From: Vulcanimicrobiales bacterium | GTDB taxonomy: Bacteria; Vulcanimicrobiota; Vulcanimicrobiia; Vulcanimicrobiales; Vulcanimicrobiaceae | Reading direction: 5' to 3' | NCBI GenBank assembly: GCA_038231455.1 | Contig: JBBRLI010000007.1 | Location: 32,001 to 96,000 of the forward strand | DNA: 64,000 nucleotides | Shown here: positions 39,986 through 55,377 of the stretch, one piece after another | Numbering within the stretch: the first letter of the stretch is position 1 | Layout of the letters: each line of letters begins with the position of its first letter | Notes under the pieces: model-generated | What the model saw: only the letters and a program-made list of their open reading frames with translations | The model's database searches: none | Told to the model about the DNA's origin: nothing | Translations under genes and position numbers: made by a program

Positions 39986-41089
39986 TTACGGGAGTTTTTT
40001 TACGAGTTCGTCGAGCGCGACGAAGTTGCGTTCCGCGAGCGCCGTCATTGCTGGCATTTTCGCGCTGAGATGACCGGCGACCGATGCGCGCTGGGACCAC
40101 GCATGATCGACGGCCCGCTCGATCGCTATGGGATCGGGCGTGCTCTTCGATGCGGGCACCCAAAGTGGCGGAAGCGGATAGGCAAGGTCATCGCAGAGCG
40201 CGTCGATTTTTGGATCGTAGGGGACGGCAAGAAACGGAACGCCAAGGCGCGCTGCGATGATCAGCGCGTGAAGCCGCATGCCGATCACCAGTTGCGCCGA
40301 GCCGATCACTTGCGCTGCCTGCGCGAGCGGATAGTCCGGTAAGAGCACGGGCGAGGTTCGGCAGCGCCGGATTACGACGGTCGAGGCTTCGGCATCGGCG
40401 GCACCGCCGAGCGGCAAGAACGCAACGCGCGCACCGTAGCGTTCGCCGAGGTGGTCGACGGCATTCGCGATTGCCGTCGCCGTCGCATCGCCGCCGGTCC
40501 AGCGGCGGACGGACACGACGACCAGTGGCGCGTCGCTCGGCCCTAAACCCTCGGCCGCAAGATCCAGCGGCGCAGCCCCCGGCTCGAAGAGAAAGACCGG
40601 ATCGGCCGTCCGTTCGACCTTCGTCCCCGGCAAGAGCGGCCCGAGTAGCGCGCGAGAGCGTTCGTCTCGGACCGTGGCAAGCGAGGCGCCACGGCAGAAT
40701 TCACGCACCACCGACTTGCCCCAGAAGTCGAGCGGACCGATCGATTGCGCGAAGATCATCGTGGCTTTCTTCGCGCGAATCGCCGTGCGGATGACCCCGG
40801 CATAATACAGCAAGCTCTTGAGGCTGGTCACGTTCTGCAAGAGCCCGCCGCCGCCCGAGAGCACGACGTCGGCCTTTTCGATCGCGCGGCGCACCGCGCC
40901 CAGATCCATACGCGCGGTCGCCTCGACGGAATAGGTCCGCTCCGTCTCCTCGGGCGTCGCGCTCAAGACGTCGATCGTGCAGCCCGCAAAACGCGCGCGC
41001 AACTGCGTGATGATAATCGCGAGGAGCGCCTCATCGCCCAAGTTTCCGAAGCCGTAATAGCCGGAGAGAACGATCCGCGGTTCACGCAT
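39986..41089 (-). CDS. csaB: Polysaccharide pyruvyl transferase CsaB
   Basis: SGYYGFGNLGDEA, SGGGGLLQNVTS..SL.YY, AQSIGP, VRDERS, GMRLHALI, YDPK. Confidence 0.92.
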   Translation of the reverse strand: MREPRIVLSGYYGFGNLGDEALLAIIITQLRARFAGCTIDVLSATPEETERTYSVEATARMDLGAVRRAIEKADVVLSGGGGLLQNVTSLKSLLYYAGVIRTAIRAKKATMIFAQSIGPLDFWGKSVVREFCRGASLATVRDERSRALLGPLLPGTKVERTADPVFLFEPGAAPLDLAAEGLGPSDAPLVVVSVRRWTGGDATATAIANAVDHLGERYGARVAFLPLGGAADAEASTVVIRRCRTSPVLLPDYPLAQAAQVIGSAQLVIGMRLHALIIAARLGVPFLAVPYDPKIDALCDDLAYPLPPLWVPASKSTPDPIAIERAVDHAWSQRASVAGHLSAKMPAMTALAERNFVALDELVKKLP

Positions 41090-43076
41090 TCGAAGCGAAA
41101 CGTGCGCGCAGCGCGCGGTAGACCACGATGGCAAGCGCGCCGATGACGACGCCGAGGACCGCGCCGTTAACGATGCGCAAGAGCGAGACGTCGAGCGCCG
41201 TGTGCAAGTGCGAGAACGTGTCGACGCAGTCGGCGAGACCCACGCCGATGCCGAGCACCAGCAACCAGCCGAACCGTTTGCGATCGATCGGCAAGAGCGC
41301 AGGCAGGAGCATCAAGAACGGAAACCCGACGAGAAATTCTTTGAAGCGCGGCCGAACCGAGAGCACCGCGGTGAGATTGGAGCGGAGCGCAAGTTCGAAC
41401 GAACTCGGAGCGATGTCACTCTGATTGCCACTGCGCACGAGCACCACGTACGCGACGCCGAGCAGGGCGGCTCCCGCGATGAGTTGATAGATGCGGATCG
41501 GAGCGTTTGCCGCTTCGCGCGGGTCGTCTAGGCGCGCATTGAAAAGCGGCGTAAGCAAATACAGCGCAAGCGCAACGATCGGCGGCAGCAAGAGCACCAG
41601 TTTGACGCCGGTGAACCGGTCGATCTCCTCCATCAAAAGCGGTGTACTGAGGAGGCCGACAATAACGAGCGCGCCGCCGAGCGTGGTGGCAACGGCCAAT
41701 CCAAGGATTCGCAAACCCGCAAGCATCGCCGCGGGCGTCGACAGGGCCGACGCACGCGAGCGGAAGATCGGCGCCGTCAGACACACGCCGGCGACGGCAA
41801 ACGCGATTCCGCCGGCGAGTGCGAGCGCCTTACGCGCGAGCATGTCGTGATGGATCGCGAGCGTGCCGCCGTAGAAGACGAGGTCAAGCGCGATGAGGGC
41901 AATTGCGAAACGCGCGCTGCCGACGCCGAAGAGCGCGCAGATCACGAGCAGGATGCCGGGCACGGCAAGCGAGGCGAGTGCGACGATTGCGGGGTTGATG
42001 CGGAAGGGCGGAATCGGCGTCGCGCGGCCGAGCGTGAAGCCGCGCGTATTCAGGCCCTCGGCGATCTGCCGAACCATCTCGACGTTGGTCGCCTCGATCG
42101 AGCGATCGCCCCAGGCGTGCGCAAAGGGCCGCAGGTAGACGACGCGCACGTTGCGTTCGCGCGCCCCGAGCAAATAGCGCGCGATGACGTTCTCGGGCTT
42201 GAGTTTATCGAGTTCGAGTTTGGCGATCGCTTGGACGCGCGTTGTTTGACCGGGAATCTTCCGCGCGAGCTCGTCGTTGCCGTCCTGAACTTGCTTTGCA
42301 TCGTAGGTCTCGATCGTACCGAAGTTCAACCGCGTGCGTTTGAACGCATCGGCCGTGCCGTCGATGGCCTTGGGAAATCCGAGCACCGCATTGCGCAACC
42401 CGAAGAAGATCACCGTGCTCACTTTGCGTTTTCCAAGGAAGGCATCGAACGTCGCATCGATTTGCGCGGCGTTGAAGCGTTCGTCGTTCTGGACGCGCGG
42501 CACAAGGAAGAACCCGAGGTGCTTCGCCAGATCCATCGTCTCGATGGGAATTCCAAGACTGACGTTCGCGAAGAAATCGGACTGCGTGCGGATCGCGACC
42601 ACGTACGGTAGTTGCGTGCGCAGCACGCGCACCGCGCGCGGTTCAAAATCGATCGCGAGATGCGCCTTGAAACGCTGCCACGTCCCGGCATTGTAGACGA
42701 CCAGATACAGCTCGTCAGGCGAGAGATGATTGCCTTTGGCAAGCGCCGCAAGGAGCGGATCACCCAGCGGTGCGAGGCGCGCCTGATCGATCAGCGCTTG
42801 GCCCGGATAGACGACGGCATTCTGCGATGCGTTAATGCTTCCGCCGAGCTGTTCTTGCACCGCAAGCGACGTCAGACCGGCGCGACGTAGCGCAACCAGG
42901 AACGCGGTTTGATCGTAGTTATACGAACGCGCAAGCGATGTAAAGTCCGTAAAGTCCATCACGATCTCGACGCGATGCGAGGCACGTTCGTAATGGAGAC
43001 GGGCGACGGCGACGTAGGCGCAGGCCAGCAGTCCGATTGCAAGGACGATGAGCCCGTTGCGCATGCGCGGATTCAC
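41082..43076 (-). CDS. DUF5693-family membrane protein
   Basis: N-terminal TM, large extracytoplasmic domain (ERNVRVVYLRP), C-terminal TMs with F.GVK, VRPRFKEFLVGFP, DTFSHLHT; overlaps csaB. Confidence 0.8.
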   Translation of the reverse strand: MNPRMRNGLIVLAIGLLACAYVAVARLHYERASHRVEIVMDFTDFTSLARSYNYDQTAFLVALRRAGLTSLAVQEQLGGSINASQNAVVYPGQALIDQARLAPLGDPLLAALAKGNHLSPDELYLVVYNAGTWQRFKAHLAIDFEPRAVRVLRTQLPYVVAIRTQSDFFANVSLGIPIETMDLAKHLGFFLVPRVQNDERFNAAQIDATFDAFLGKRKVSTVIFFGLRNAVLGFPKAIDGTADAFKRTRLNFGTIETYDAKQVQDGNDELARKIPGQTTRVQAIAKLELDKLKPENVIARYLLGARERNVRVVYLRPFAHAWGDRSIEATNVEMVRQIAEGLNTRGFTLGRATPIPPFRINPAIVALASLAVPGILLVICALFGVGSARFAIALIALDLVFYGGTLAIHHDMLARKALALAGGIAFAVAGVCLTAPIFRSRASALSTPAAMLAGLRILGLAVATTLGGALVIVGLLSTPLLMEEIDRFTGVKLVLLLPPIVALALYLLTPLFNARLDDPREAANAPIRIYQLIAGAALLGVAYVVLVRSGNQSDIAPSSFELALRSNLTAVLSVRPRFKEFLVGFPFLMLLPALLPIDRKRFGWLLVLGIGVGLADCVDTFSHLHTALDVSLLRIVNGAVLGVVIGALAIVVYRALRARFASNA

Positions 43077-43924
43077 CGGTCGACGAACTCGCGAAGAAAC
43101 GACTGGAGACGCGCGGTCACGGCGTCCGGGCGATCGAGCTGCAGGTAATGTCCTCCGGGGATCACGTCGTACACAAATTCATCCGCCAGCCGCTCACGCA
43201 GCGAGGCCACGAGTTCGGGCGAACGTGGTTTCTTGATCGCCGCACTGCCGTAGAGCAAGAGGGTCGGCGAAGAGAGTTCGCGCGCGAACGGGCGCGTCGG
43301 AAACCCGACGACGCCTTCGAATGCCTCGAAGATCATGCGCGGATATTCAATCGGAATCTGCGTGCGCTGTTGTTGCCACGCTTCCTCCATATTTGCGCGA
43401 TCTTCAAAACTTTGTTCGAAGGTCCAACGTGCGATACTTCGCGCGATGCGGCCGTCGTGCGCGAACGACCGCGCGAGCGGTCCGAGCGCAAACCGCACGA
43501 GCGGTTTGAGCGGTCCGACGTCGTGCCCGGACTTGCCGTCTTCGGGATAGACGGGATCGATCAGCCCAAGACCGGCGACGCCGGCCGCGTTCTCTGCCGC
43601 GAGGGCGAGTGCGAGCAATCCGCCCATTGAATGACCGACGATTGCGACCGGCCGACGTTCCGATGCGATGACCGAGCCAAGCGCTTCGCGAGCATCGATG
43701 AAATAATCACCGAGTCCCGCATCATCAACGCGGGCGGCCGCACCGTGCCCGCGCCCCTCCCACACATAGACACGACGCGTTGCTGCGAGGGCCTCGCGCT
43801 GGGGCGCCCACGACCAAGCGCCGCCGCCGACACCGTGGAGAAAGAGCACCGGGGTGGCTTCGGTGGACGTACCGCCGTCGTGCAAGGCACCGCCGGAGGG
43901 AAGCTGCAGTTCGGCTTGACGCAC
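43073..43924 (-). CDS. Alpha/beta-fold hydrolase
   Basis: FLHGVGG, RGHG, GHSMGG nucleophile elbow, GGHYL. Confidence 0.88.
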   Translation of the reverse strand: MRQAELQLPSGGALHDGGTSTEATPVLFLHGVGGGAWSWAPQREALAATRRVYVWEGRGHGAAARVDDAGLGDYFIDAREALGSVIASERRPVAIVGHSMGGLLALALAAENAAGVAGLGLIDPVYPEDGKSGHDVGPLKPLVRFALGPLARSFAHDGRIARSIARWTFEQSFEDRANMEEAWQQQRTQIPIEYPRMIFEAFEGVVGFPTRPFARELSSPTLLLYGSAAIKKPRSPELVASLRERLADEFVYDVIPGGHYLQLDRPDAVTARLQSFLREFVDR

Positions 43925-43977: not shown

Positions 43978-45282
43978 TTGTCGCTCTCGCAACCGGCGCG
44001 CGCGGTCGGGATCGGCCTGCTGGGATGCGGGACGGTCGGCGGCGGCGTCGCGCAGCTGCTCATCGCCAACCCCTCAGCAATTACGCGTGTCGCGGGCGCA
44101 GAATTCGTTTTGCGCCGCGTCGCCGTGCGCGATCTGCACAAGCCACGCAATGTCACACTACCGCTTGACTTGCTTACGGGCGATCCCAATTCGGTCGTGG
44201 ACGATCCCGAGATCGACCTGATCATCGAATGTATCGGTGGCGTCGGCATCGCGGGCACACTTGTCGAACGCGCACTCGAACACGGCAAGCACGTCGTGAC
44301 CGCCAATAAAGATCTCCTCGCGACCGAAGGCCCGCGCCTCGCGGCGCTCGCTGCGGCTCGCGGCGTCACGCTTCAGTATGAAGCAGCGGTGGGCGGCGCC
44401 ATTCCGATCGTGCGTGCGCTGACCGATTCGCTCGCGGGCGAAGACGTACTCGAAGTCGGCGGTGTGCTCAACGGCACGACCAACTTCATCTTGAGCGCGA
44501 TGGGTGGCGGCGCCACGTACGCGGGAGCGCTCGCGGAGGCCCAGCGCCTCGGATTTGCTGAGGCCGATCCGACAAGCGACGTCGAGGGCATCGATGCTGC
44601 GCACAAACTTGCAATCCTCGCGCAGCTCTCGTTCAAACACGCTGTCACCTCCGATCGCATTACGCGACGTGGGATTACCGGCGTCTCGCGCGATGACGTC
44701 GTCCTCGCCTCACGGCTCGGCATGCGGGTGAAACTCATCGCCTGTGCGCGCCGCAGCGGCACGATCAGCGCGTCGGTCACGCCGGCATACGTTCCGATCG
44801 GTCATCCATTTGCCGAGCCGACGGGGGCTCACAACTGCATTCGCGTGATCGGCACGTCCTCCGGTTCGCTCACCTTTGCGGGAAGCGGCGCGGGGCGCGA
44901 ACCCACCGCCTCCGCCGTCATCGGCGATGTCATCGCCGCGCTGCGGCGGCTTGCCGGCGGTATTCACGACGCGGTCAAACTCGCACCGATCGACGATGCA
45001 ATGCTGCCGCCAATCGTGCTCCCACGCATCGTACGACTCGCGTCGCTGCGCGACGTGCGCCCGGCAGTAACGGCGCTCGCGCATGCCGGGATTTCTGCGC
45101 GCGCCGCAGCGGACGTACCCGCCGTCATTACTGCTGCGCTCGCACTCGATCGCGATCCCGATCTTCACAGCGCGCTTGCGACAGACGGCTTACGCGCGGC
45201 AAGCATGCATCCGCTTTGGGAAGATGATACGCACGACGCGCCGGGCGAACGTGCCGAGCAGACCGACGCCGTTGCCGTCTAG
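43978..45282 (+). CDS. hom: Homoserine dehydrogenase
   Basis: GLLGCGTVGGG, VVTANK, YEAAVGGAIP, LNGTTNFIL, AEADP..DVEGIDAAHKL, GAGREPTASAV. Confidence 0.95.
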   Translation: MSLSQPARAVGIGLLGCGTVGGGVAQLLIANPSAITRVAGAEFVLRRVAVRDLHKPRNVTLPLDLLTGDPNSVVDDPEIDLIIECIGGVGIAGTLVERALEHGKHVVTANKDLLATEGPRLAALAAARGVTLQYEAAVGGAIPIVRALTDSLAGEDVLEVGGVLNGTTNFILSAMGGGATYAGALAEAQRLGFAEADPTSDVEGIDAAHKLAILAQLSFKHAVTSDRITRRGITGVSRDDVVLASRLGMRVKLIACARRSGTISASVTPAYVPIGHPFAEPTGAHNCIRVIGTSSGSLTFAGSGAGREPTASAVIGDVIAALRRLAGGIHDAVKLAPIDDAMLPPIVLPRIVRLASLRDVRPAVTALAHAGISARAAADVPAVITAALALDRDPDLHSALATDGLRAASMHPLWEDDTHDAPGERAEQTDAVAV

Positions 45283-46336
45283 TCTAGCACCGGTTTTCGA
45301 GGGCGACGTGCGCATCGGCGCACTCACCCTCGCAAACGGCGCGTGCCTCGATGAGGTGGTGCAGCGCGTCACGCGCTACGGCGCAGAACCGCTCGCTGAT
45401 GGGAGCAACGTCGTTCTCGTGCTGCACGCGCTCACGGGTTCGAGCCGCGTCGTCGAGTGGTGGAGCGGCCTGGTCGATTCACTTGTCGATCTCGAGCGCG
45501 CGTGTTTGATTGGGATCAACGTGCTCGGCGGGTGCTACGGCTCCACCGGACCTGCCTCACTTGCGCCCGACGGCAAACGCTACGCCACGCGCTTTCCGAT
45601 CGTGACCGTCGCTGATATGGTCGACGCACAAGCGCTCGCGCTCACGGCGATTGGAATCGATCGTGCCGCGCTCATCATCGGGGGTTCGCTCGGCGGCATG
45701 CAGGCGCTCCAGTGGTCCGTGCGTTACGGCGCGCGTGTCGGCGAAGCGGTCGTCGTCGGCGCGCACGATGCGTTTTCAGCGCTCGGCATCGGTCTGAATT
45801 TTTGTGCGCGCACGGCGATCATGAACGACGCAAACTTTAATGGCGGCGCGTATGCCGAGTCGGCGCCGCTCGATGGCATGAAACTCGCGCGTATGATCGC
45901 AATGCTTTCGTACAAGAGCGACGTTCTGCTCGAGGATCGGTTTGCGAACCGGCCCAACCGCAGCGGCGGCGATCCGACGCGGTTTAGCGCAGACCGATTC
46001 GATGTCGAAGGCTATCTTGCGTATCAAGCCGATCTCTTCGCGCATCGCATGGACGCCAACGCCTATCTTGCGCTGACGCGCGCGATGGATCTTTTCGACG
46101 TGCGCGCAACCCCGATCGTGCATCCGGCACGGACGACGTTTGTCGGGATCGAAAACGATTGGCTCTTTCCGCCCACGTACGTTCGCGCTGCTGCCGATCG
46201 TCTGCGTGCGCGCGGCGTCGACGCGACCTATCTCGAACTTCCAAGCGACCACGGTCATGACGCGTTCCTTGCGGAAACGCAGGCGCTCGCCGCTCTGCTC
46301 GAACCGCATCTCGGTGCGGCACTAACCCGCCACTAG
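45251..46336 (+). CDS. metX: Homoserine O-acyltransferase MetX (start GTG45251 or ATG45224)
   Basis: HALTG, NVLGGCYGSTGP, GGSLGGMQA, ARMIAMLSY, DWLFPP, HGHDAFL. Confidence 0.93.
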   Translation: MPSRPTPLPSSLAPVFEGDVRIGALTLANGACLDEVVQRVTRYGAEPLADGSNVVLVLHALTGSSRVVEWWSGLVDSLVDLERACLIGINVLGGCYGSTGPASLAPDGKRYATRFPIVTVADMVDAQALALTAIGIDRAALIIGGSLGGMQALQWSVRYGARVGEAVVVGAHDAFSALGIGLNFCARTAIMNDANFNGGAYAESAPLDGMKLARMIAMLSYKSDVLLEDRFANRPNRSGGDPTRFSADRFDVEGYLAYQADLFAHRMDANAYLALTRAMDLFDVRATPIVHPARTTFVGIENDWLFPPTYVRAAADRLRARGVDATYLELPSDHGHDAFLAETQALAALLEPHLGAALTRH

Positions 46337-46460
46337 AAACAGGAAAGCCCGCCGGGGGGCGGGCCTTGCACTGTCGTCGCGTAGCAGGTTGCCCCGCTAC
46401 CGGGTGTGGGCGACGTTCAAAATATGCGAAACGTTCGCATAGCCCACACCGCTTGCGCTT
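46337..46460 (-). ncRNA. Candidate structured small RNA of unknown family
   Basis: Promoter at 46467-46495; nested stems ggtgtgggc/gcccacacc and tatgcgaa/ttcgcata; GCAA-tetraloop hairpin 46381-46400; terminator 46344-46367; no coding ORF. Confidence 0.6.
46344..46367. terminator. Probable bidirectional intrinsic terminator (metX and sRNA)
   Basis: aaagcccgcc-gggg-ggcgggcctt; minus strand continues tttcctgtttc. Confidence 0.7.
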
Positions 46461-46466
46461 TAGGCA

Positions 46467-46495
46467 AGTATAGCGGCTTCGTAGCAGCTTTCCAA
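46467..46495 (-). promoter_or_regulatory. Sigma-70-type promoter TTGGAA-N17-TATACT
   Basis: Near-consensus hexamers with 17-nt spacer, AT-rich upstream region. Confidence 0.65.
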
Positions 46496-46510
46496 CCCTC
46501 AATAGTAAAT

Positions 46511-46536
46511 TTAACGTCAGGAATTTCTGAACTTAA
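46511..46536. promoter_or_regulatory. Palindromic operator candidate
   Basis: ttaacgtcaggaatttctgaacttaa, 20 of 26 positions self-complementary. Confidence 0.5.
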
Positions 46537-46626
46537 CAACGATTCTCGGGAGCACGTCAAAATGGTAAGCCCATTCCCGCACGCCAATACGATTTACGAA
46601 GCGATCCAATTGCGCTTCGCAGAATC

Positions 46627-47406
46627 TTACGGTTCCCACTGCGGTGTGCGCTTTTCGACGAATGCATGCATGCCTTCTTGCGCGTCGTTAGCAAGCGCAT
46701 TCATACTCATCACTTCTTTTGCGTATGCGTACGCTTTGGGTTGGTCGAGGTCGACTTGCGCGTAAAATGCCGCTTTTCCGAGACCGACGACGAAGCGGCT
46801 CGCATGGGCGACGCTGGCAGCAAGCGCACGCGTCTCGGCTTCGAGAGCCTCCGGAGCGACGACGCGATTGATGAGTCCCCAGGCAGTTGCGGTTTGCGCA
46901 TCGATAAAGGCGCCGGTGAGGAGCATCTCCATCGCGCGCTTCCGTCCGATCGCGCGCGTGAGTGCCACCATCGGCGTCGTACAGAAGAGCCCGATTTTCA
47001 CTCCGGGGGTCGCGAACTTTGCGTCGCTCGAAGCAACGGCAAGATCGCACGTCGCAACGAGTTGACAACCGGCCGCCGTCGCAATGCCGGCGACCTCGGC
47101 GATCACCGGCTGCGGGATGCGTTGGATCGTCTCCATGAGCCGCACGCACACATCGAAGGTCTCGCGGTACTCCTCGACCGACCGAGCGAGCATCTCCCGA
47201 AGGTCGTGACCGGCCGAAAACGCGGGCCCAAGCCCGCTCAGAATGACAACACGCTGCGCTCGATCGCGCTCGATCTCGTTGAATGCCTCAATGAGTTCGA
47301 GCATGACGCCGAGTGAGAGCGCGTTGCGCTTTTCCGCCCGGTTCATGGTGACGCGCGTGACGCCATCCTGGGTATCGACGAGAAGGTAACGATCGGCGTT
47401 GATCAT
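46627..47406 (-). CDS. Enoyl-CoA hydratase/isomerase family protein
   Basis: KRNALS, AFSAGHDL, ATAAGCQLVATCDL, FATPGVKIGLFCTTP, EGMHAFVEKR. Confidence 0.92.
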   Translation of the reverse strand: MINADRYLLVDTQDGVTRVTMNRAEKRNALSLGVMLELIEAFNEIERDRAQRVVILSGLGPAFSAGHDLREMLARSVEEYRETFDVCVRLMETIQRIPQPVIAEVAGIATAAGCQLVATCDLAVASSDAKFATPGVKIGLFCTTPMVALTRAIGRKRAMEMLLTGAFIDAQTATAWGLINRVVAPEALEAETRALAASVAHASRFVVGLGKAAFYAQVDLDQPKAYAYAKEVMSMNALANDAQEGMHAFVEKRTPQWEP

Positions 47407-47467
47407 CGAGATTAATTCTTTGAAGAAGAGGACGTCCCTCGGCGGTTCTCCGGCGTCACCGTAGTAC

Positions 47468-48346
47468 ATGAACGTTTCTATGACAACCAAGGATCGCGGC
47501 GTAAGCCGCGCCGGCCGGATTACCGGCATCGGCTTACTCGTCTTGCATCTGGGAGCGCTTGCCGCATTTCTTCCGCAGATGTTCTCCTGGACAGCAGTCG
47601 GCGTCGGCTTTTTGTTTTACTATCTGACGATCGCGCTTGGCGTCGGGCTTGGCTATCATCGCCTGCTGACGCATCGCTCGCTGCGCACGTCGAAGCCGAT
47701 CGAATACGGGCTCGCGATCCTCGGAGCGCTCGCGCTGCAGGGCGGCCCGATCGACTGGATCGGAACGCACCGCGCGCATCACGCGCATACCGACGCCGAC
47801 GGCGATCCGCACGACGCGAATCGCGGTATGTTTTGGAGTCACATCGCGTGGCTCTATCGCTATAATACGGCAAAACCCGTCGGCCAAAATCTGCGCCGCC
47901 TCGCACCGGATCTCGCTAGCGTGCCGTTCTACGAATTTCTCGAGAAGACGTACGTCTGGTGGACCGTGGCCCTGGGACTCGTGTTCTTTGCGATCGGGGG
48001 TTTGCCGTGGGTCGTGTGGGGCATCTTCGTGCGCATCGTCGTGACGTACCACATCACGTGGCTCGTCAATAGCGCCGCACACGAGGTCGGCTATCAAAGC
48101 TACAAAACCGGTGACAAATCAACCAACAATTGGTGGGTTGCGCTGCTGACCTGGGGCGAAGGCTGGCACAACAACCACCACGCGTTCCCGTCCTCGGCAC
48201 GACACGGTTTACGGTGGTATGAGATTGACGGCACCTGGATCACGATCAAACTGATGAAGGCGCTCAAACTCGCGCACGACATCAAGCTCCCGACGCCCGG
48301 GATGATCGCACGCATGTCGCTCGAGCCGCGCGCTGCGACGAAATAA
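47468..48346 (+). CDS. Delta-9-type acyl-CoA/acyl-lipid fatty acid desaturase
   Basis: His boxes GYHRLLTH, HRAHHAH, GEGWHNNHH; TWLVNSAAH. Confidence 0.93.
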   Translation: MNVSMTTKDRGVSRAGRITGIGLLVLHLGALAAFLPQMFSWTAVGVGFLFYYLTIALGVGLGYHRLLTHRSLRTSKPIEYGLAILGALALQGGPIDWIGTHRAHHAHTDADGDPHDANRGMFWSHIAWLYRYNTAKPVGQNLRRLAPDLASVPFYEFLEKTYVWWTVALGLVFFAIGGLPWVVWGIFVRIVVTYHITWLVNSAAHEVGYQSYKTGDKSTNNWWVALLTWGEGWHNNHHAFPSSARHGLRWYEIDGTWITIKLMKALKLAHDIKLPTPGMIARMSLEPRAATK

Positions 48347-48350
48347 AATT

Positions 48351-48422
48351 TGGGCGATGACGGATTCGAACCGCCGACCAACTCGGTGTAAACGAGCTGC
48401 TCTCCCGCTGAGCTAATCGCCC
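48351..48422 (-). tRNA. tRNA-Val(TAC), CCA not encoded
   Basis: GGGCGATTAGCTCAGCGGGAGAGCA-GCTCG-TTTACAC-CGAGT-TGGTC-GGCGGTTCGAATCCGTC-ATCGCCC-A cloverleaf. Confidence 0.95.
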
Positions 48423-54410: not shown

Positions 54411-54485
54411 TGGTAGCGCCAACGGGAGTCGAACCCGTCTCTTCGCCTTGAAAGGGCAACGTCCTAACCGATAGACTATGGCGCC
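54411..54485 (-). tRNA. tRNA-Glu(TTC)
   Basis: GGCGCCATAGTCTATCGGTTAGGACG-TTGCC-CTTTCAA-GGCGA-AGAG-ACGGGTTCGACTCCCGT-TGGCGCT-ACCA. Confidence 0.96.
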
Positions 54486-55302: not shown

Positions 55303-55377
55303 TGGTGGGCCCGGCTGGATTCGAACCAGCGCGCTACCAGTTATGAGCCGGCTGCTCTACCGCTGAGCTACGAGCCC
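55303..55377 (-). tRNA. tRNA with CAT anticodon, most likely tRNA-Ile2 (lysidine)
   Basis: GGGCTCGTAGCTCAGCGGTAGAGCA-GCCGG-CTCATAA-CTGGT...GCTGGTTCGAATCCAGC-CGGGCCC-ACCA; paired G1-C72 and no GGG/CCC anticodon stem argue against initiator. Confidence 0.88.

What the first reader, a model, noticed from the sequence alone, without database searches (positions are those of the whole stretch)
46337..46536. Candidate novel small RNA gene with promoter, upstream operator and terminator
Seen, in a 290-bp gap between convergent metX and enoyl-CoA hydratase genes, on the minus strand: a 26-bp palindrome centred ~63 nt upstream of the predicted TSS; TTGGAA-N17-TATACT; then ~120 nt folding into a perfect 9-bp stem (GGUGUGGGC/GCCCACACC) enclosing an 8-bp hairpin and a UUUUGAACGUC bulge; an 8-bp GCAA-tetraloop hairpin; a single-stranded GCGACGACAGUGC; and a C-loop terminator. 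There is no downstream gene to regulate in cis. I cannot match it to SRP, 6S, tmRNA, RNase P or common riboswitches. Inference: a regulated trans-acting sRNA.
Basis: partly seen in the sequence, partly recalled or inferred. Interest (0 to 1): 0.75.

Follow-up and report, generated by a model that had tools for sequence, protein, structure and literature searches.

The report
New pseudoknotted small RNA family
The flagged gap holds a real, strongly conserved, about 125-base structured RNA gene of a family not in the RNA-family library, found in one family of uncultured soil bacteria, where it usually sits just in front of a cell-wall operon but stands alone in this genome.

Summary
Rfam 15 has no match.

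It is one of at least 130 distinct copies of an undescribed RNA family, confined to the window's own bacterial family: 58 of 71 genomes there, 1 weak hit in 79 elsewhere in the phylum.

Consensus fold: hairpin P1 with a GUGGGC loop, an A-rich linker, invariant helix P2 (CGUCGC/GCGACG) around an invariant 9-nt bulge CCACACCCG that pairs with the P1 loop, covarying P3, and a covarying terminator.

In 109 of 130 copies a DUF5693-csaB operon starts just after the terminator. Here metX and hom, on the other strand, separate them.

Stand-alone copies stay intact across deep divergence, other paralogs face convergent genes, and no antiterminator is conserved.

Best reading (0.5): an autonomous folded RNA that also serves as leader in the usual loci. 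Main rival: a riboswitch-like leader (0.3).

Two reader claims fail. The palindrome "operator" is not conserved, and the proposed single-stranded seed is helix.

The parts
46627..47529 (-). Enoyl-CoA hydratase (ECH) gene, upstream of the RNA on the same strand. This is the usual upstream neighbour of the family.
   Evidence: Pfam ECH_1, E = 3.8e-61. ECH lies upstream on the same strand in 107 of 130 copies.
46511..46536 (.). Probably not a functional part.
   Evidence: 10 of 13 arm pairs; 96 of 2000 shuffles do as well. Not conserved in G001.
46467..46495 (-). Promoter-like site TTGGAA-N17-TATACT. The start near 46460 is predicted, not measured.
   Evidence: 9 of 12 matches. Both hexamers and the spacing are identical in G001. 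In relatives, 33 of 116 upstream regions score 8 or more of 12, against 10% of shuffles.
46337..46460 (-). Predicted RNA, about 124 nt, from the inferred start to the U-run.
   Evidence: Covariance model R1 hit at 46323-46472, 101.8 bits, E = 4e-26. It is the only hit below E = 0.4 in the window. Fold z = -6.1.
46442..46450 (-). GGUGUGGGC, the 5' strand of the long-range or pseudoknot pairing. It corresponds to the GUGGGC loop of P1 in relatives.
   Evidence: The four core pairs are standard in 107-116 of 117 sequences.
46423..46441 (-). Lineage-specific 8-bp hairpin UAUGCGAA/UUCGCAUA.
   Evidence: The stem is kept and the loop changed in G001.
46416..46422 (-). Linker UUUUGAA. In the family the linker is A-rich.
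   Evidence: The 6 nt before P2 are 56% A over 127 copies.
46410..46415 (-). P2 5' strand, CGUCGC.
   Evidence: Invariant in 117 of 117 sequences. One paralog, L152, has a compensatory G-C to U-A change.
46401..46409 (-). Invariant 9-nt bulge CCACACCCG, the 3' partner of the pseudoknot.
46381..46400 (-). P3 hairpin GUAGCGGGG-CAA-CCUGCUAC.
   Evidence: Four P3 pairs have both-side changes in 8 to 33 of 117 sequences.
46375..46380 (-). P2 3' strand, GCGACG.
   Evidence: Invariant in 117 of 117.
46337..46374 (-). Intrinsic terminator stem-loop plus a UUU run. It abuts the metX stop codon (46334-46336).
   Evidence: Six terminator pairs have both-side changes. Mean stem energy is -26 kcal/mol over 117 copies.
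45083..46336 (+). metX (homoserine O-acetyltransferase), convergent with the RNA.
   Evidence: NCBIfam PRK00175, E = 7.4e-96, 321 bits, just under its 331-bit cut-off. The same arrangement occurs in L003, L076, L097, L111 and L123.
39986..43924 (-). Displaced usual downstream operon: alpha/beta hydrolase (43073-43924), DUF5693 (41082-43076) and CsaB (39986-41134).

Best explanation
The locus encodes an independently transcribed, compactly folded small RNA of about 125 nt. It belongs to a previously undescribed family restricted to one bacterial family of Eremiobacterota (record titles name Baltobacteraceae and allies).

The functional core is the invariant P2 / 9-nt bulge / base-of-P3 module. 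It is locked by a pseudoknot to the GUGGGC element and ends in its own intrinsic terminator.

I infer that the RNA works as a folded molecule, a recognition module for a protein or a small ligand, rather than through a long antisense seed.

In the usual locus (ECH, RNA, DUF5693-csaB) the same transcript is also the 5' leader of the cell-wall operon, so its terminator limits how much transcription reaches that operon. In this genome hom-metX, on the other strand, has separated RNA and operon. The RNA therefore persists as a free-standing gene whose product can only act away from its own locus.

Shown: the structure, its conservation, the gene contexts and the absence from Rfam. Inferred: the transcript ends, action in trans, and the nature of the partner.
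For: - **Real and conserved.** The fold has z = -6.1. The only strong model hit in the window and the genome is here, at 101.8 bits. The 3' 100 nt and both promoter hexamers are identical to G001, while the flanks and metX (80% aa identity) have diverged.
- **Family.** There are at least 120 stretches and 130 distinct copies. The RNA is in 58 of 71 genomes of the window's family, against 1 weak hit in 79 from other families of the phylum.
- **Structure.** 94.1% of cells are paired. 198 cells have both-side changes, against 38 in shuffles, and 0 of 500 shuffles reach this. The value drops to 15-54 when the partners are slid. A P1 stem of at least 5 bp encloses GUGGGC in 78 of 117 copies, against 16% of shuffles.
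- **Tertiary contact.** The GNRA tip of P3 is replaced in many members by a CCCGACAAAAAGGG insert. That fits a tertiary contact (inference).
- **Autonomy.**
  - Promoter-like sites are enriched upstream.
  - The six 'RNA then convergent metX' loci have metX only 60-73% identical, except the congener pair window/L003 at 80%. All keep the P1, pseudoknot, P2, P3 and terminator sequence elements.
  - Paralogs of up to 3 strong copies per genome lie in unrelated contexts. Several face convergent genes: a BNR protein, catalase, an RNase D-like protein and a LuxR-type protein.
  - One paralog lies 210 nt upstream of mraZ, which looks to have its own promoter region.
- **No switch.** No conserved antiterminator was found: mean z = -0.7, duplex -12 against terminator -26 kcal/mol.
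- **Genome background.** The genome encodes Hfq and CsrA homologues.
- **Expression (weak).** Contigs from RNA libraries of 2 studies cover the RNA core of relatives. Some short contigs lie wholly inside it.
Against: - In 109 of 130 copies a DUF5693 gene follows on the same strand. Where its N-terminal R-T-R-F/Y motif was recognised (76 of 127 copies), the median distance from the end of the terminator stem is 56 nt. That leaves no room for a separate promoter. By the criteria used for riboswitch candidates (passages of PMC10861870) this is cis-regulatory behaviour.
- A highly conserved pseudoknotted core is also typical of riboswitch aptamers.
- No transcript ends, strand or abundance were measured. 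The RNA-library evidence comes from contigs of relatives and may include DNA.
- No partner and no target were identified. Sites complementary to the invariant block lie deep inside ORFs and look like codon usage.
- Some genomes of the family have DUF5693 but no RNA: G005, G007, G011 and G015. The RNA is therefore dispensable.
- The relatives are kin and the six orphan loci may go back to one event, so the counts overstate independence.
Confidence: 0.5

Rival explanations
1. Cis-acting leader, either a riboswitch or a protein-dependent attenuator. The pseudoknotted core senses a ligand or factor and sets read-through of its terminator into DUF5693-csaB. The window copy is then an orphaned sensor that at most gates antisense transcription into metX and hom.
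For: - DUF5693 follows on the same strand in 109 of 130 copies.
- The order is promoter, fold, terminator, then about 20-30 nt, then the start codon.
- In G007, which lacks the RNA, ECH and DUF5693 are 45 nt apart, so the RNA unit sits inside an operon-like pair.
- The invariant junction with covarying stems resembles an aptamer.
- Immediate same-orientation genes and terminator stems are the stated hallmarks of riboswitches (PMC10861870 passages).
Against: - No conserved alternative pairing with the terminator was found.
- Terminators are uniformly strong, with a mean of -26 kcal/mol.
- Orphan copies are maintained across 60-73% metX identity.
- Paralogs face convergent genes or sit far from the next gene.
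- No ligand clue exists, because DUF5693 has no literature.
Confidence: 0.3
2. A classical base-pairing sRNA. A single-stranded seed (GCGACGACAGUGC, or the C-rich bulge) pairs with mRNAs, and expression is controlled from the upstream palindrome.
For: - A promoter-like site and a terminator are present.
- Hfq is present.
- The family is multi-copy.
- Orphan contexts exist.
Against: - The proposed seed is helix P2 plus the terminator stem.
- The bulge is complementary to the RNA's own P1 loop.
- The palindrome is not conserved.
- Complementary genome sites of 12-14 nt lie at codons 55-488 of ORFs, not at translation starts.
- U-tails are short or poor in many members.
Confidence: 0.1
3. A self-cleaving ribozyme of a new class, or a far pistol-like variant.
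For: - The connectivity matches pistol: a P1 hairpin loop pairs with the internal loop between P2 and P3, and the P1-P2 linker is A-rich (pistol features from passages of PMC6154101).
- A pseudoknotted hammerhead shares that connectivity (abstract of PMC11300833).
- The core is invariant, and there are several copies in varied contexts.
Against: - No Rfam ribozyme family matches, even at E up to 10.
- There are no unpaired nucleotides and no G-U step on the 3' side between P3 and P2.
- No hammerhead core motifs are visible in the invariant blocks. This rests on my reading of the sequence and a recalled consensus.
- A promoter and a terminator frame the RNA as a transcription unit.
Confidence: 0.05
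4. No function of its own here: a decaying remnant of a leader that survives only as a terminator or insulator between ECH and metX.
For: The RNA is uncoupled from DUF5693 in this genome. Some genomes lack it altogether.
Against: - The 3' 100 nt are 100% identical in G000 and G001 although the flanks have diverged.
- The full architecture, with changed but still pairing P1 and P3 sequences, is kept in all six orphan loci.
- A truly degraded copy, L154 (38 bits, bulge lost), looks different.
Confidence: 0.03

Closest known systems
Pistol self-cleaving ribozyme (Rfam RF02679, accession recalled), and the pseudoknot-containing hammerhead with the same connectivity
   Same: Connectivity. A 5' hairpin P1 has a loop that forms a short pseudoknot with the 5' side of the internal loop between P2 and P3. 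A short linker joins P1 to P2, and the size is similar (PMC6154101 passages; PMC11300833 abstract).
   Different: No model match. There is no junction and no G-U step on the 3' side between P3 and P2. The conserved nucleotides differ. This RNA is followed by a terminator and lies in a chromosomal operon context in Eremiobacterota, not near phage genes in Firmicutes.
raiA motif RNA
   Same: A conserved, intricately folded bacterial ncRNA of unknown biochemical function. It has strong but not absolute synteny (downstream of comFC 74%, upstream of raiA 66%) and is judged to act as a trans factor (PMC10861870 passages).
   Different: raiA RNA is single-copy, lacks an associated terminator platform and lies hundreds of nt from the next ORF. 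It is also larger, about 200 nt (size recalled, from no call). This RNA is about 125-165 nt, sometimes multi-copy, ends in a strong terminator and usually lies about 20-30 nt from the next start codon.
Transcription-terminating riboswitches and attenuators whose terminated leader also acts in trans (Listeria SreA/SreB, Sinorhizobium rnTrpL; all recalled, no call)
   Same: The order promoter, structured leader, intrinsic terminator, gene. A terminated short RNA could have a second life in trans, and stand-alone copies exist.
   Different: No ligand, leader peptide or alternative antiterminator structure is evident here. There is no sequence or model similarity to any Rfam leader.
ftsZ-DE RNA (RF02985)
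   Same: The best Rfam score for a family member: a hairpin, a linker and a terminator-like hairpin aligned, 26.2 bits, E = 0.003 in a 221-nt search.
   Different: The score is far below the 72.2-bit gathering score and covers only P3 plus the terminator. There was no such hit for the window copy or for L093.

Membership tests
Any Rfam 15 family | A covariance-model score at or above the family's gathering score | tested here: not met
   Gathering mode over the window finds only 3 tRNAs. E-value mode on 46250-46700 gives a best score of 18 bits for a CRISPR repeat, on the terminator only. For relatives L100 and L093 the best is ftsZ-DE at 26.2 bits against 72.2.
Pistol ribozyme | The P1 loop forms a pseudoknot with the junction or internal loop between P2 and P3 | tested here: met
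   GUGG of the P1 loop pairs with CCAC of the bulge in 107-116 of 117 sequences. The pairing extends to 6-9 bp in the window's clade. There is no covariation, because both sides are nearly invariant.
Pistol ribozyme | A G-U cleavage dinucleotide in a length-conserved junction linking P3 and P2 on the 3' side | tested here: not met
   P3 runs straight into the P2 3' strand (UAC|GCGACG), with no unpaired nucleotides and no GU.
Pistol ribozyme | Self-cleavage activity | not testable with these tools
   Needs an in vitro transcript assay.
Transcription-terminating riboswitch | Lies immediately upstream of, and co-oriented with, the regulated gene | tested here: inconclusive
   Met in 109 of 130 copies, with DUF5693. 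Not met in the window copy, in 5 further metX-convergent loci, or in several paralogs.
Transcription-terminating riboswitch | An expression platform with mutually exclusive terminator and antiterminator pairing | tested here: not met
   Duplexes between the P1-3'/linker segment and the terminator 5' strand have mean z = -0.7 against shuffles. Only 17% have z below -2. Other segments were inspected by eye only.
Transcription-terminating riboswitch | Specific ligand binding | not testable with these tools
   Needs in-line probing, ITC or similar.
Hfq-type base-pairing sRNA | A conserved single-stranded seed, a terminator with a long U-tail, and complementary sites at mRNA translation starts | tested here: not met
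   The conserved blocks are helical or engaged in the pseudoknot. Many members have tails such as CUGUGAUU. Complementary sites lie inside ORFs. Hfq itself is present.
CsrA/RsmA-sequestering RNA | Multiple GGA motifs in hairpin loops | tested here: not met
   No repeated loop GGA motifs appear in the window RNA or the consensus. This was judged by eye. CsrA is present in the genome.

The most novel reading that the evidence does not exclude
The RNA founds a new class of ligand-sensing or catalytic RNA with a pistol-like pseudoknot fold. In Baltobacteraceae it gates the operon for cell-wall polymer pyruvylation and S-layer anchoring (DUF5693-csaB). Its terminated product has gained a second, trans-acting life, which is why orphan and paralogous copies such as the one in this window persist.
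Probability: 0.25. Interest if true: 0.8.

Novelty: new member of a known kind. Interest (0 to 1): 0.6.

Why it matters
- **First RNA of its kind for this group.** My searches of the held library found no paper pairing Eremiobacterota with riboswitch, none that mentions DUF5693, and nothing relevant on csaB riboswitches or Eremiobacterota ncRNAs.
- **A rare degree of conservation.** A roughly 130-nt RNA with more than 25 invariant core nucleotides, a pseudoknot and clear covariation is the type of element that has often proved to be a riboswitch, a ribozyme or a protein-binding RNA.
- **A functional handle.** The link to DUF5693-csaB ties it to secondary cell-wall polymer pyruvylation, and DUF5693 itself is uncharacterised.
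- **A natural experiment.** Leader copies and orphan copies coexist in the same family, which allows cis and trans roles to be separated.
- **Practical use.** The model R1 could annotate this RNA in hundreds of metagenome-assembled genomes.

Tried and rejected
- **Rfam identity.** No family matched.
- **Operator role of the 26-bp palindrome.** Rejected: it is marginal (96 of 2000 shuffles) and not conserved in G001.
- **Second copy in front of the displaced operon.** None was found in the window with filters off. In the whole genome there is only a 16.5-bit, E = 0.2 hit at C10:29829-29972, which I did not follow.
- **Antiterminator search.** Negative.
- **Genome-wide complementary sites to the invariant block.**
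  - There is an excess over reversed-sequence controls: 37 against 11 for 11-mers, of which 8 are the RNA locus itself.
  - The six sites of 12-14 nt that I inspected sit inside long ORFs. Two examples are a G-V-G-D-coding stretch and a V-W-A-T-coding stretch.
  - I read this excess as codon usage, not as targets.
- **Presence outside the family.** A record titled Limnocylindria (L082) falls in the same family grouping as the window's genome. The Acidoferrum- and Acidiferrales-titled records carry the ordinary ECH-RNA-DUF5693 context. There is therefore no evidence for other phyla.
- **Sequencing runs.**
  - Only 3 runs were found, each holding 0.09 of the sampled words.
  - The laid contigs are relatives' copies. 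They show neither ends, strand nor level.
  - Parts without cover mean nothing.
- **Downstream ORFs of several second copies.** For L018, L019, L020, L074 and L011 there were no usable Pfam hits: 9 of the 10 ORFs had none, and one L018 ORF had a sub-threshold Hpt match (20.3 bits against a 24.6-bit cut-off).
- **Earlier findings of this scan.** Three look-ups returned nothing.
- **A coding reading.** Rejected by inference. The P3 length variants differ by 16-17 nt, and the stems covary.

Full report
**1. The observation**

- The gap runs from the metX stop (46336, + strand) to the stop of an enoyl-CoA hydratase (ECH) gene (46627, - strand).
- TTGGAA-N17-TATACT lies at 46495-46467.
- A perfect 9-bp pairing GGUGUGGGC/GCCCACACC and an 8-bp hairpin are present.
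- So are a GCAA-loop hairpin and a terminator.
- The 134-nt stretch folds at -70.1 kcal/mol, z = -6.1, and 0 of 200 shuffles fold as well.

ECH lies upstream of the RNA on the same strand, and metX converges on it.

Two details do not hold.
- The 26-bp palindrome has 10 of 13 arm pairs. It is matched by 96 of 2000 block shuffles of the upstream 156 nt. It is largely replaced in the congener G001.
- The 'single-stranded GCGACGACAGUGC' is helix in the family consensus (section 3).

**2. Not a known family, but a family**

Rfam 15 gives only three tRNAs in the window at gathering thresholds. Nothing meaningful appears at E up to 10 on the locus or on two relatives. The best score there is ftsZ-DE at 26.2 bits against a 72.2-bit threshold, covering only P3 and the terminator.

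How the family was collected:
- A BLAST-type search of 41 related genomes found the 3' 80 nt in 16 of them, twice in some.
- All 20 places carried the same 17-mer and 8-mer blocks without my asking for them.
- Of the 80 rows listed, 73 have titles naming Eremiobacterota, Vulcanimicrobiota, WPS-2 or genera of Baltobacteraceae. Four name other phyla and three are generic.
- After removing duplicates I had 130 distinct copies.

How far it reaches:
- A covariance model (R1) found the RNA in 60 of 151 genomes sampled across the phylum.
- That is 58 of 71 in the window's own family, and one weak hit (E = 8.6e-4) among 79 from 20 other families.
- The 'Limnocylindria'-titled record belongs to the same family grouping.
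- Thirteen family genomes had no hit, including two single-contig genomes that are 97% complete.

Caveat: the 120 scanned stretches were selected for an exact core, so invariance of those letters among them is by construction. Independent support comes from three places.
- The 20 BLAST hits carried the blocks without selection.
- The flanking C and G of P2 were not in the pattern, yet are invariant in 117 of 117 sequences.
- The model-found paralogs deviate only slightly.

Loci L004 and L012 come from unpublished genomes G022 and G020. They are included in the counts, but no claim depends on them.

**3. Architecture**

From the alignment of 117 copies (A1), RNAalifold and pair counts, the order is:
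- a promoter-like site;
- hairpin P1, whose loop holds GUGGGC;
- an A-rich linker, 56% A;
- P2, CGUCGC/GCGACG, invariant;
- inside P2, a 9-nt bulge CCACACCCG, invariant;
- P3, either GNRA-capped or carrying a conserved CCCGACAAAAAGGG insert;
- immediately afterwards, the terminator.

Covariation:
- P3 and the terminator covary. Ten pairs have both-side changes.
- 198 cells have such a change, against 38 in shuffles, and 0 of 500 shuffles reach that.
- Sliding the partners by 1-3 columns drops pairing from 94% to 28-50%.
- P2 has no variation in A1. The paralog L152 shows a compensatory G-C to U-A change.

Pseudoknot:
- The P1 loop GUGG pairs with CCAC of the bulge in 107-116 of 117 sequences.
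- There is no covariation, because both sides are nearly fixed.
- In the window's clade the complementarity is extended to 8-9 bp.
- A stem of at least 5 contiguous pairs encloses GUGGGC in 78 of 117 copies, against 16% of shuffled flanks.

In the window's clade the 5' strand of P1 is missing and a separate hairpin follows GGUGUGGGC. For the window RNA the nested minimum-energy fold (-66.9 kcal/mol) and the family fold (-54.2 with P2 forced, plus about -11 for the pseudoknot duplex) are about equal.

The connectivity is that of the pistol ribozyme, whose P1 loop also pairs with the P2-P3 internal loop (PMC6154101 passages). A pseudoknotted hammerhead shares it (PMC11300833 abstract). The 3' junction and the G-U step that define pistol are absent, and no ribozyme model matches.

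**4. Context**

tblastn against the oriented loci shows a DUF5693 gene (PF18949, E about 1e-130) directly downstream on the same strand in 109 of 130 copies. ECH lies upstream in 107 of 130.

The distance from the end of the terminator stem to the conserved N-terminal R-T-R-F/Y motif has a median of 56 nt in the 76 loci where that motif was recognised. By my reading of the printed sequences, the likely GUG start lies about 20-30 nt after the U-run. That leaves no room for a separate promoter, so DUF5693 must be transcribed through the RNA.

In this genome DUF5693 (41082-43076, -) is followed by CsaB (TIGR03609, E = 2e-79) and preceded by an alpha/beta hydrolase. It is separated from the RNA by hom and metX on the other strand.

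Related arrangements:
- 'RNA then convergent metX' recurs in L003, L076, L097, L111 and L123.
- In L123, DUF5693 follows metX.
- In L094 the order is RNA, hydrolase, DUF5693.
- G007 lacks the RNA and has ECH and DUF5693 45 nt apart. G015 has hydrolase-DUF5693 and no RNA.

**5. Cis or trans**

For a cis leader:
- the tight, co-oriented position in 84% of copies;
- the terminator;
- the aptamer-like core.

Against a purely cis role:
1. No conserved antiterminator was found. Duplexes between the P1-3'/linker segment and the terminator 5' strand have mean z = -0.7 and -12 kcal/mol, against -26 kcal/mol for the terminator.
2. The six metX-convergent loci have metX only 60-73% identical, with the congener pair window/L003 at 80%. 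All keep the P1, pseudoknot, P2, P3 and terminator sequence elements, with changed but still pairing stems.
3. G000 and G001 are identical over the 3' 100 nt and in both promoter hexamers, while the flanks differ.
4. Paralogs scoring 70-81 bits lie in other contexts, up to three strong copies in one complete genome:
   - L153 faces a BNR/sortilin-like gene;
   - L155 faces catalase;
   - L082 faces an RNase D-like gene;
   - L058 faces a LuxR-type gene;
   - L151 lies 210 nt upstream of mraZ, which has its own repeats and promoter-like region (my reading);
   - L152 lies 370 nt from a LuxR-type gene.
5. Promoter-like sites scoring at least 8 of 12 occur in 33 of 116 upstream regions, against 10% of shuffles. 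In one clade they start at the ECH stop codon.

A degraded copy, L154 (38 bits, bulge lost), shows what decay looks like.

I therefore rank an autonomous folded RNA that doubles as leader first, at 0.5. A dedicated riboswitch-like leader comes second, at 0.3.

The raiA motif RNA is the nearest precedent for a syntenic yet trans-acting structured RNA. It differs in lacking a terminator platform and in lying far from the next ORF (PMC10861870 passages).

**6. Further checks**

- **RNA-binding proteins.** The genome has Hfq and CsrA homologues. The RNA has neither a free conserved seed nor loop GGA motifs.
- **Complementary sites.** Sites complementary to the invariant block are more frequent than reversed controls. 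The six sites of 12-14 nt inspected lie deep inside ORFs.
- **Sequencing runs.**
  - Three public runs hold a small share of the locus.
  - When laid, contigs from RNA libraries of two studies cover the RNA core of relatives.
  - One 426-nt contig spans the metX end, the RNA and an upstream conserved block. Several contigs of 49-102 nt lie wholly inside the RNA.
  - This is compatible with expression, but it shows no ends, strand or level, and DNA carry-over cannot be excluded.

**7. Novelty and literature**

The held library has no paper that mentions DUF5693, and none that pairs Eremiobacterota with riboswitch. The 17 papers holding both csaB and riboswitch (10 listed) looked irrelevant by title and abstract. 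A broader term search gave nothing relevant in its top 10. Supplementary files were not consulted. Earlier notes of this scan returned nothing.

**Verdict.** This is a real and well-supported new family of a known kind, a structured small RNA or leader, with unknown biochemical function.

Noticed in passing
window 46560-46587 (-): A 28-nt block (ATTGGCGTGCGGGAATGGGCTTACCATT) about 100 nt upstream of the predicted RNA start. It contains AATGG-N5-CCATT. It is largely conserved in G001, and one RNA-library contig of a more distant relative matches it with 1 mismatch. It could be a regulator site or an ECH 3' element.
   Followed up: partly
window 46597-46620 (-): A hairpin GCGAAGCG...CGCUUCG starts 7 nt after the ECH stop codon. 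G001 has a shifted hairpin at the same place. It may be a weak ECH terminator or a processing site.
   Followed up: no
window 39986-43924 (-): An operon of alpha/beta hydrolase, DUF5693 (664 aa, membrane protein) and CsaB pyruvyl transferase. DUF5693 has no literature in the held library, yet it is tightly linked to csaB and to this RNA family.
   Followed up: partly
L151:3001-3821 (G096): A second full-length copy of the RNA (75 bits) lies 210 nt upstream of mraZ-rsmH, the head of the division and cell-wall cluster. Three GTGGTG repeats sit just before mraZ.
   Followed up: partly
L154:3001-3135 (G068): A variant copy (38 bits) has lost the 9-nt bulge, and P2 and P3 form one continuous helix. 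It is either a decaying copy or a bulge-less variant.
   Followed up: no
L146:1150-1400 (G005): Upstream of DUF5693 in a genome without the RNA there are at least three tandem copies of a GC-rich unit of about 80 nt (CGCCCCGGACGCT...GGCAAGCT...).
   Followed up: no
G000:C10:29829-29972 (+): A weak second hit of model R1 in the window's own genome: 16.5 bits, E = 0.2.
   Followed up: no
window 48351-48422, 54414-54485, 55306-55377 (-): Three tRNA genes, the only Rfam gathering-level matches in the window.
   Followed up: no
L058 and L152: In two genomes a paralogous RNA copy neighbours a LuxR-type (GerE) protein of about 520-540 aa. It is convergent in one and 370 nt upstream and co-oriented in the other.
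   Followed up: no
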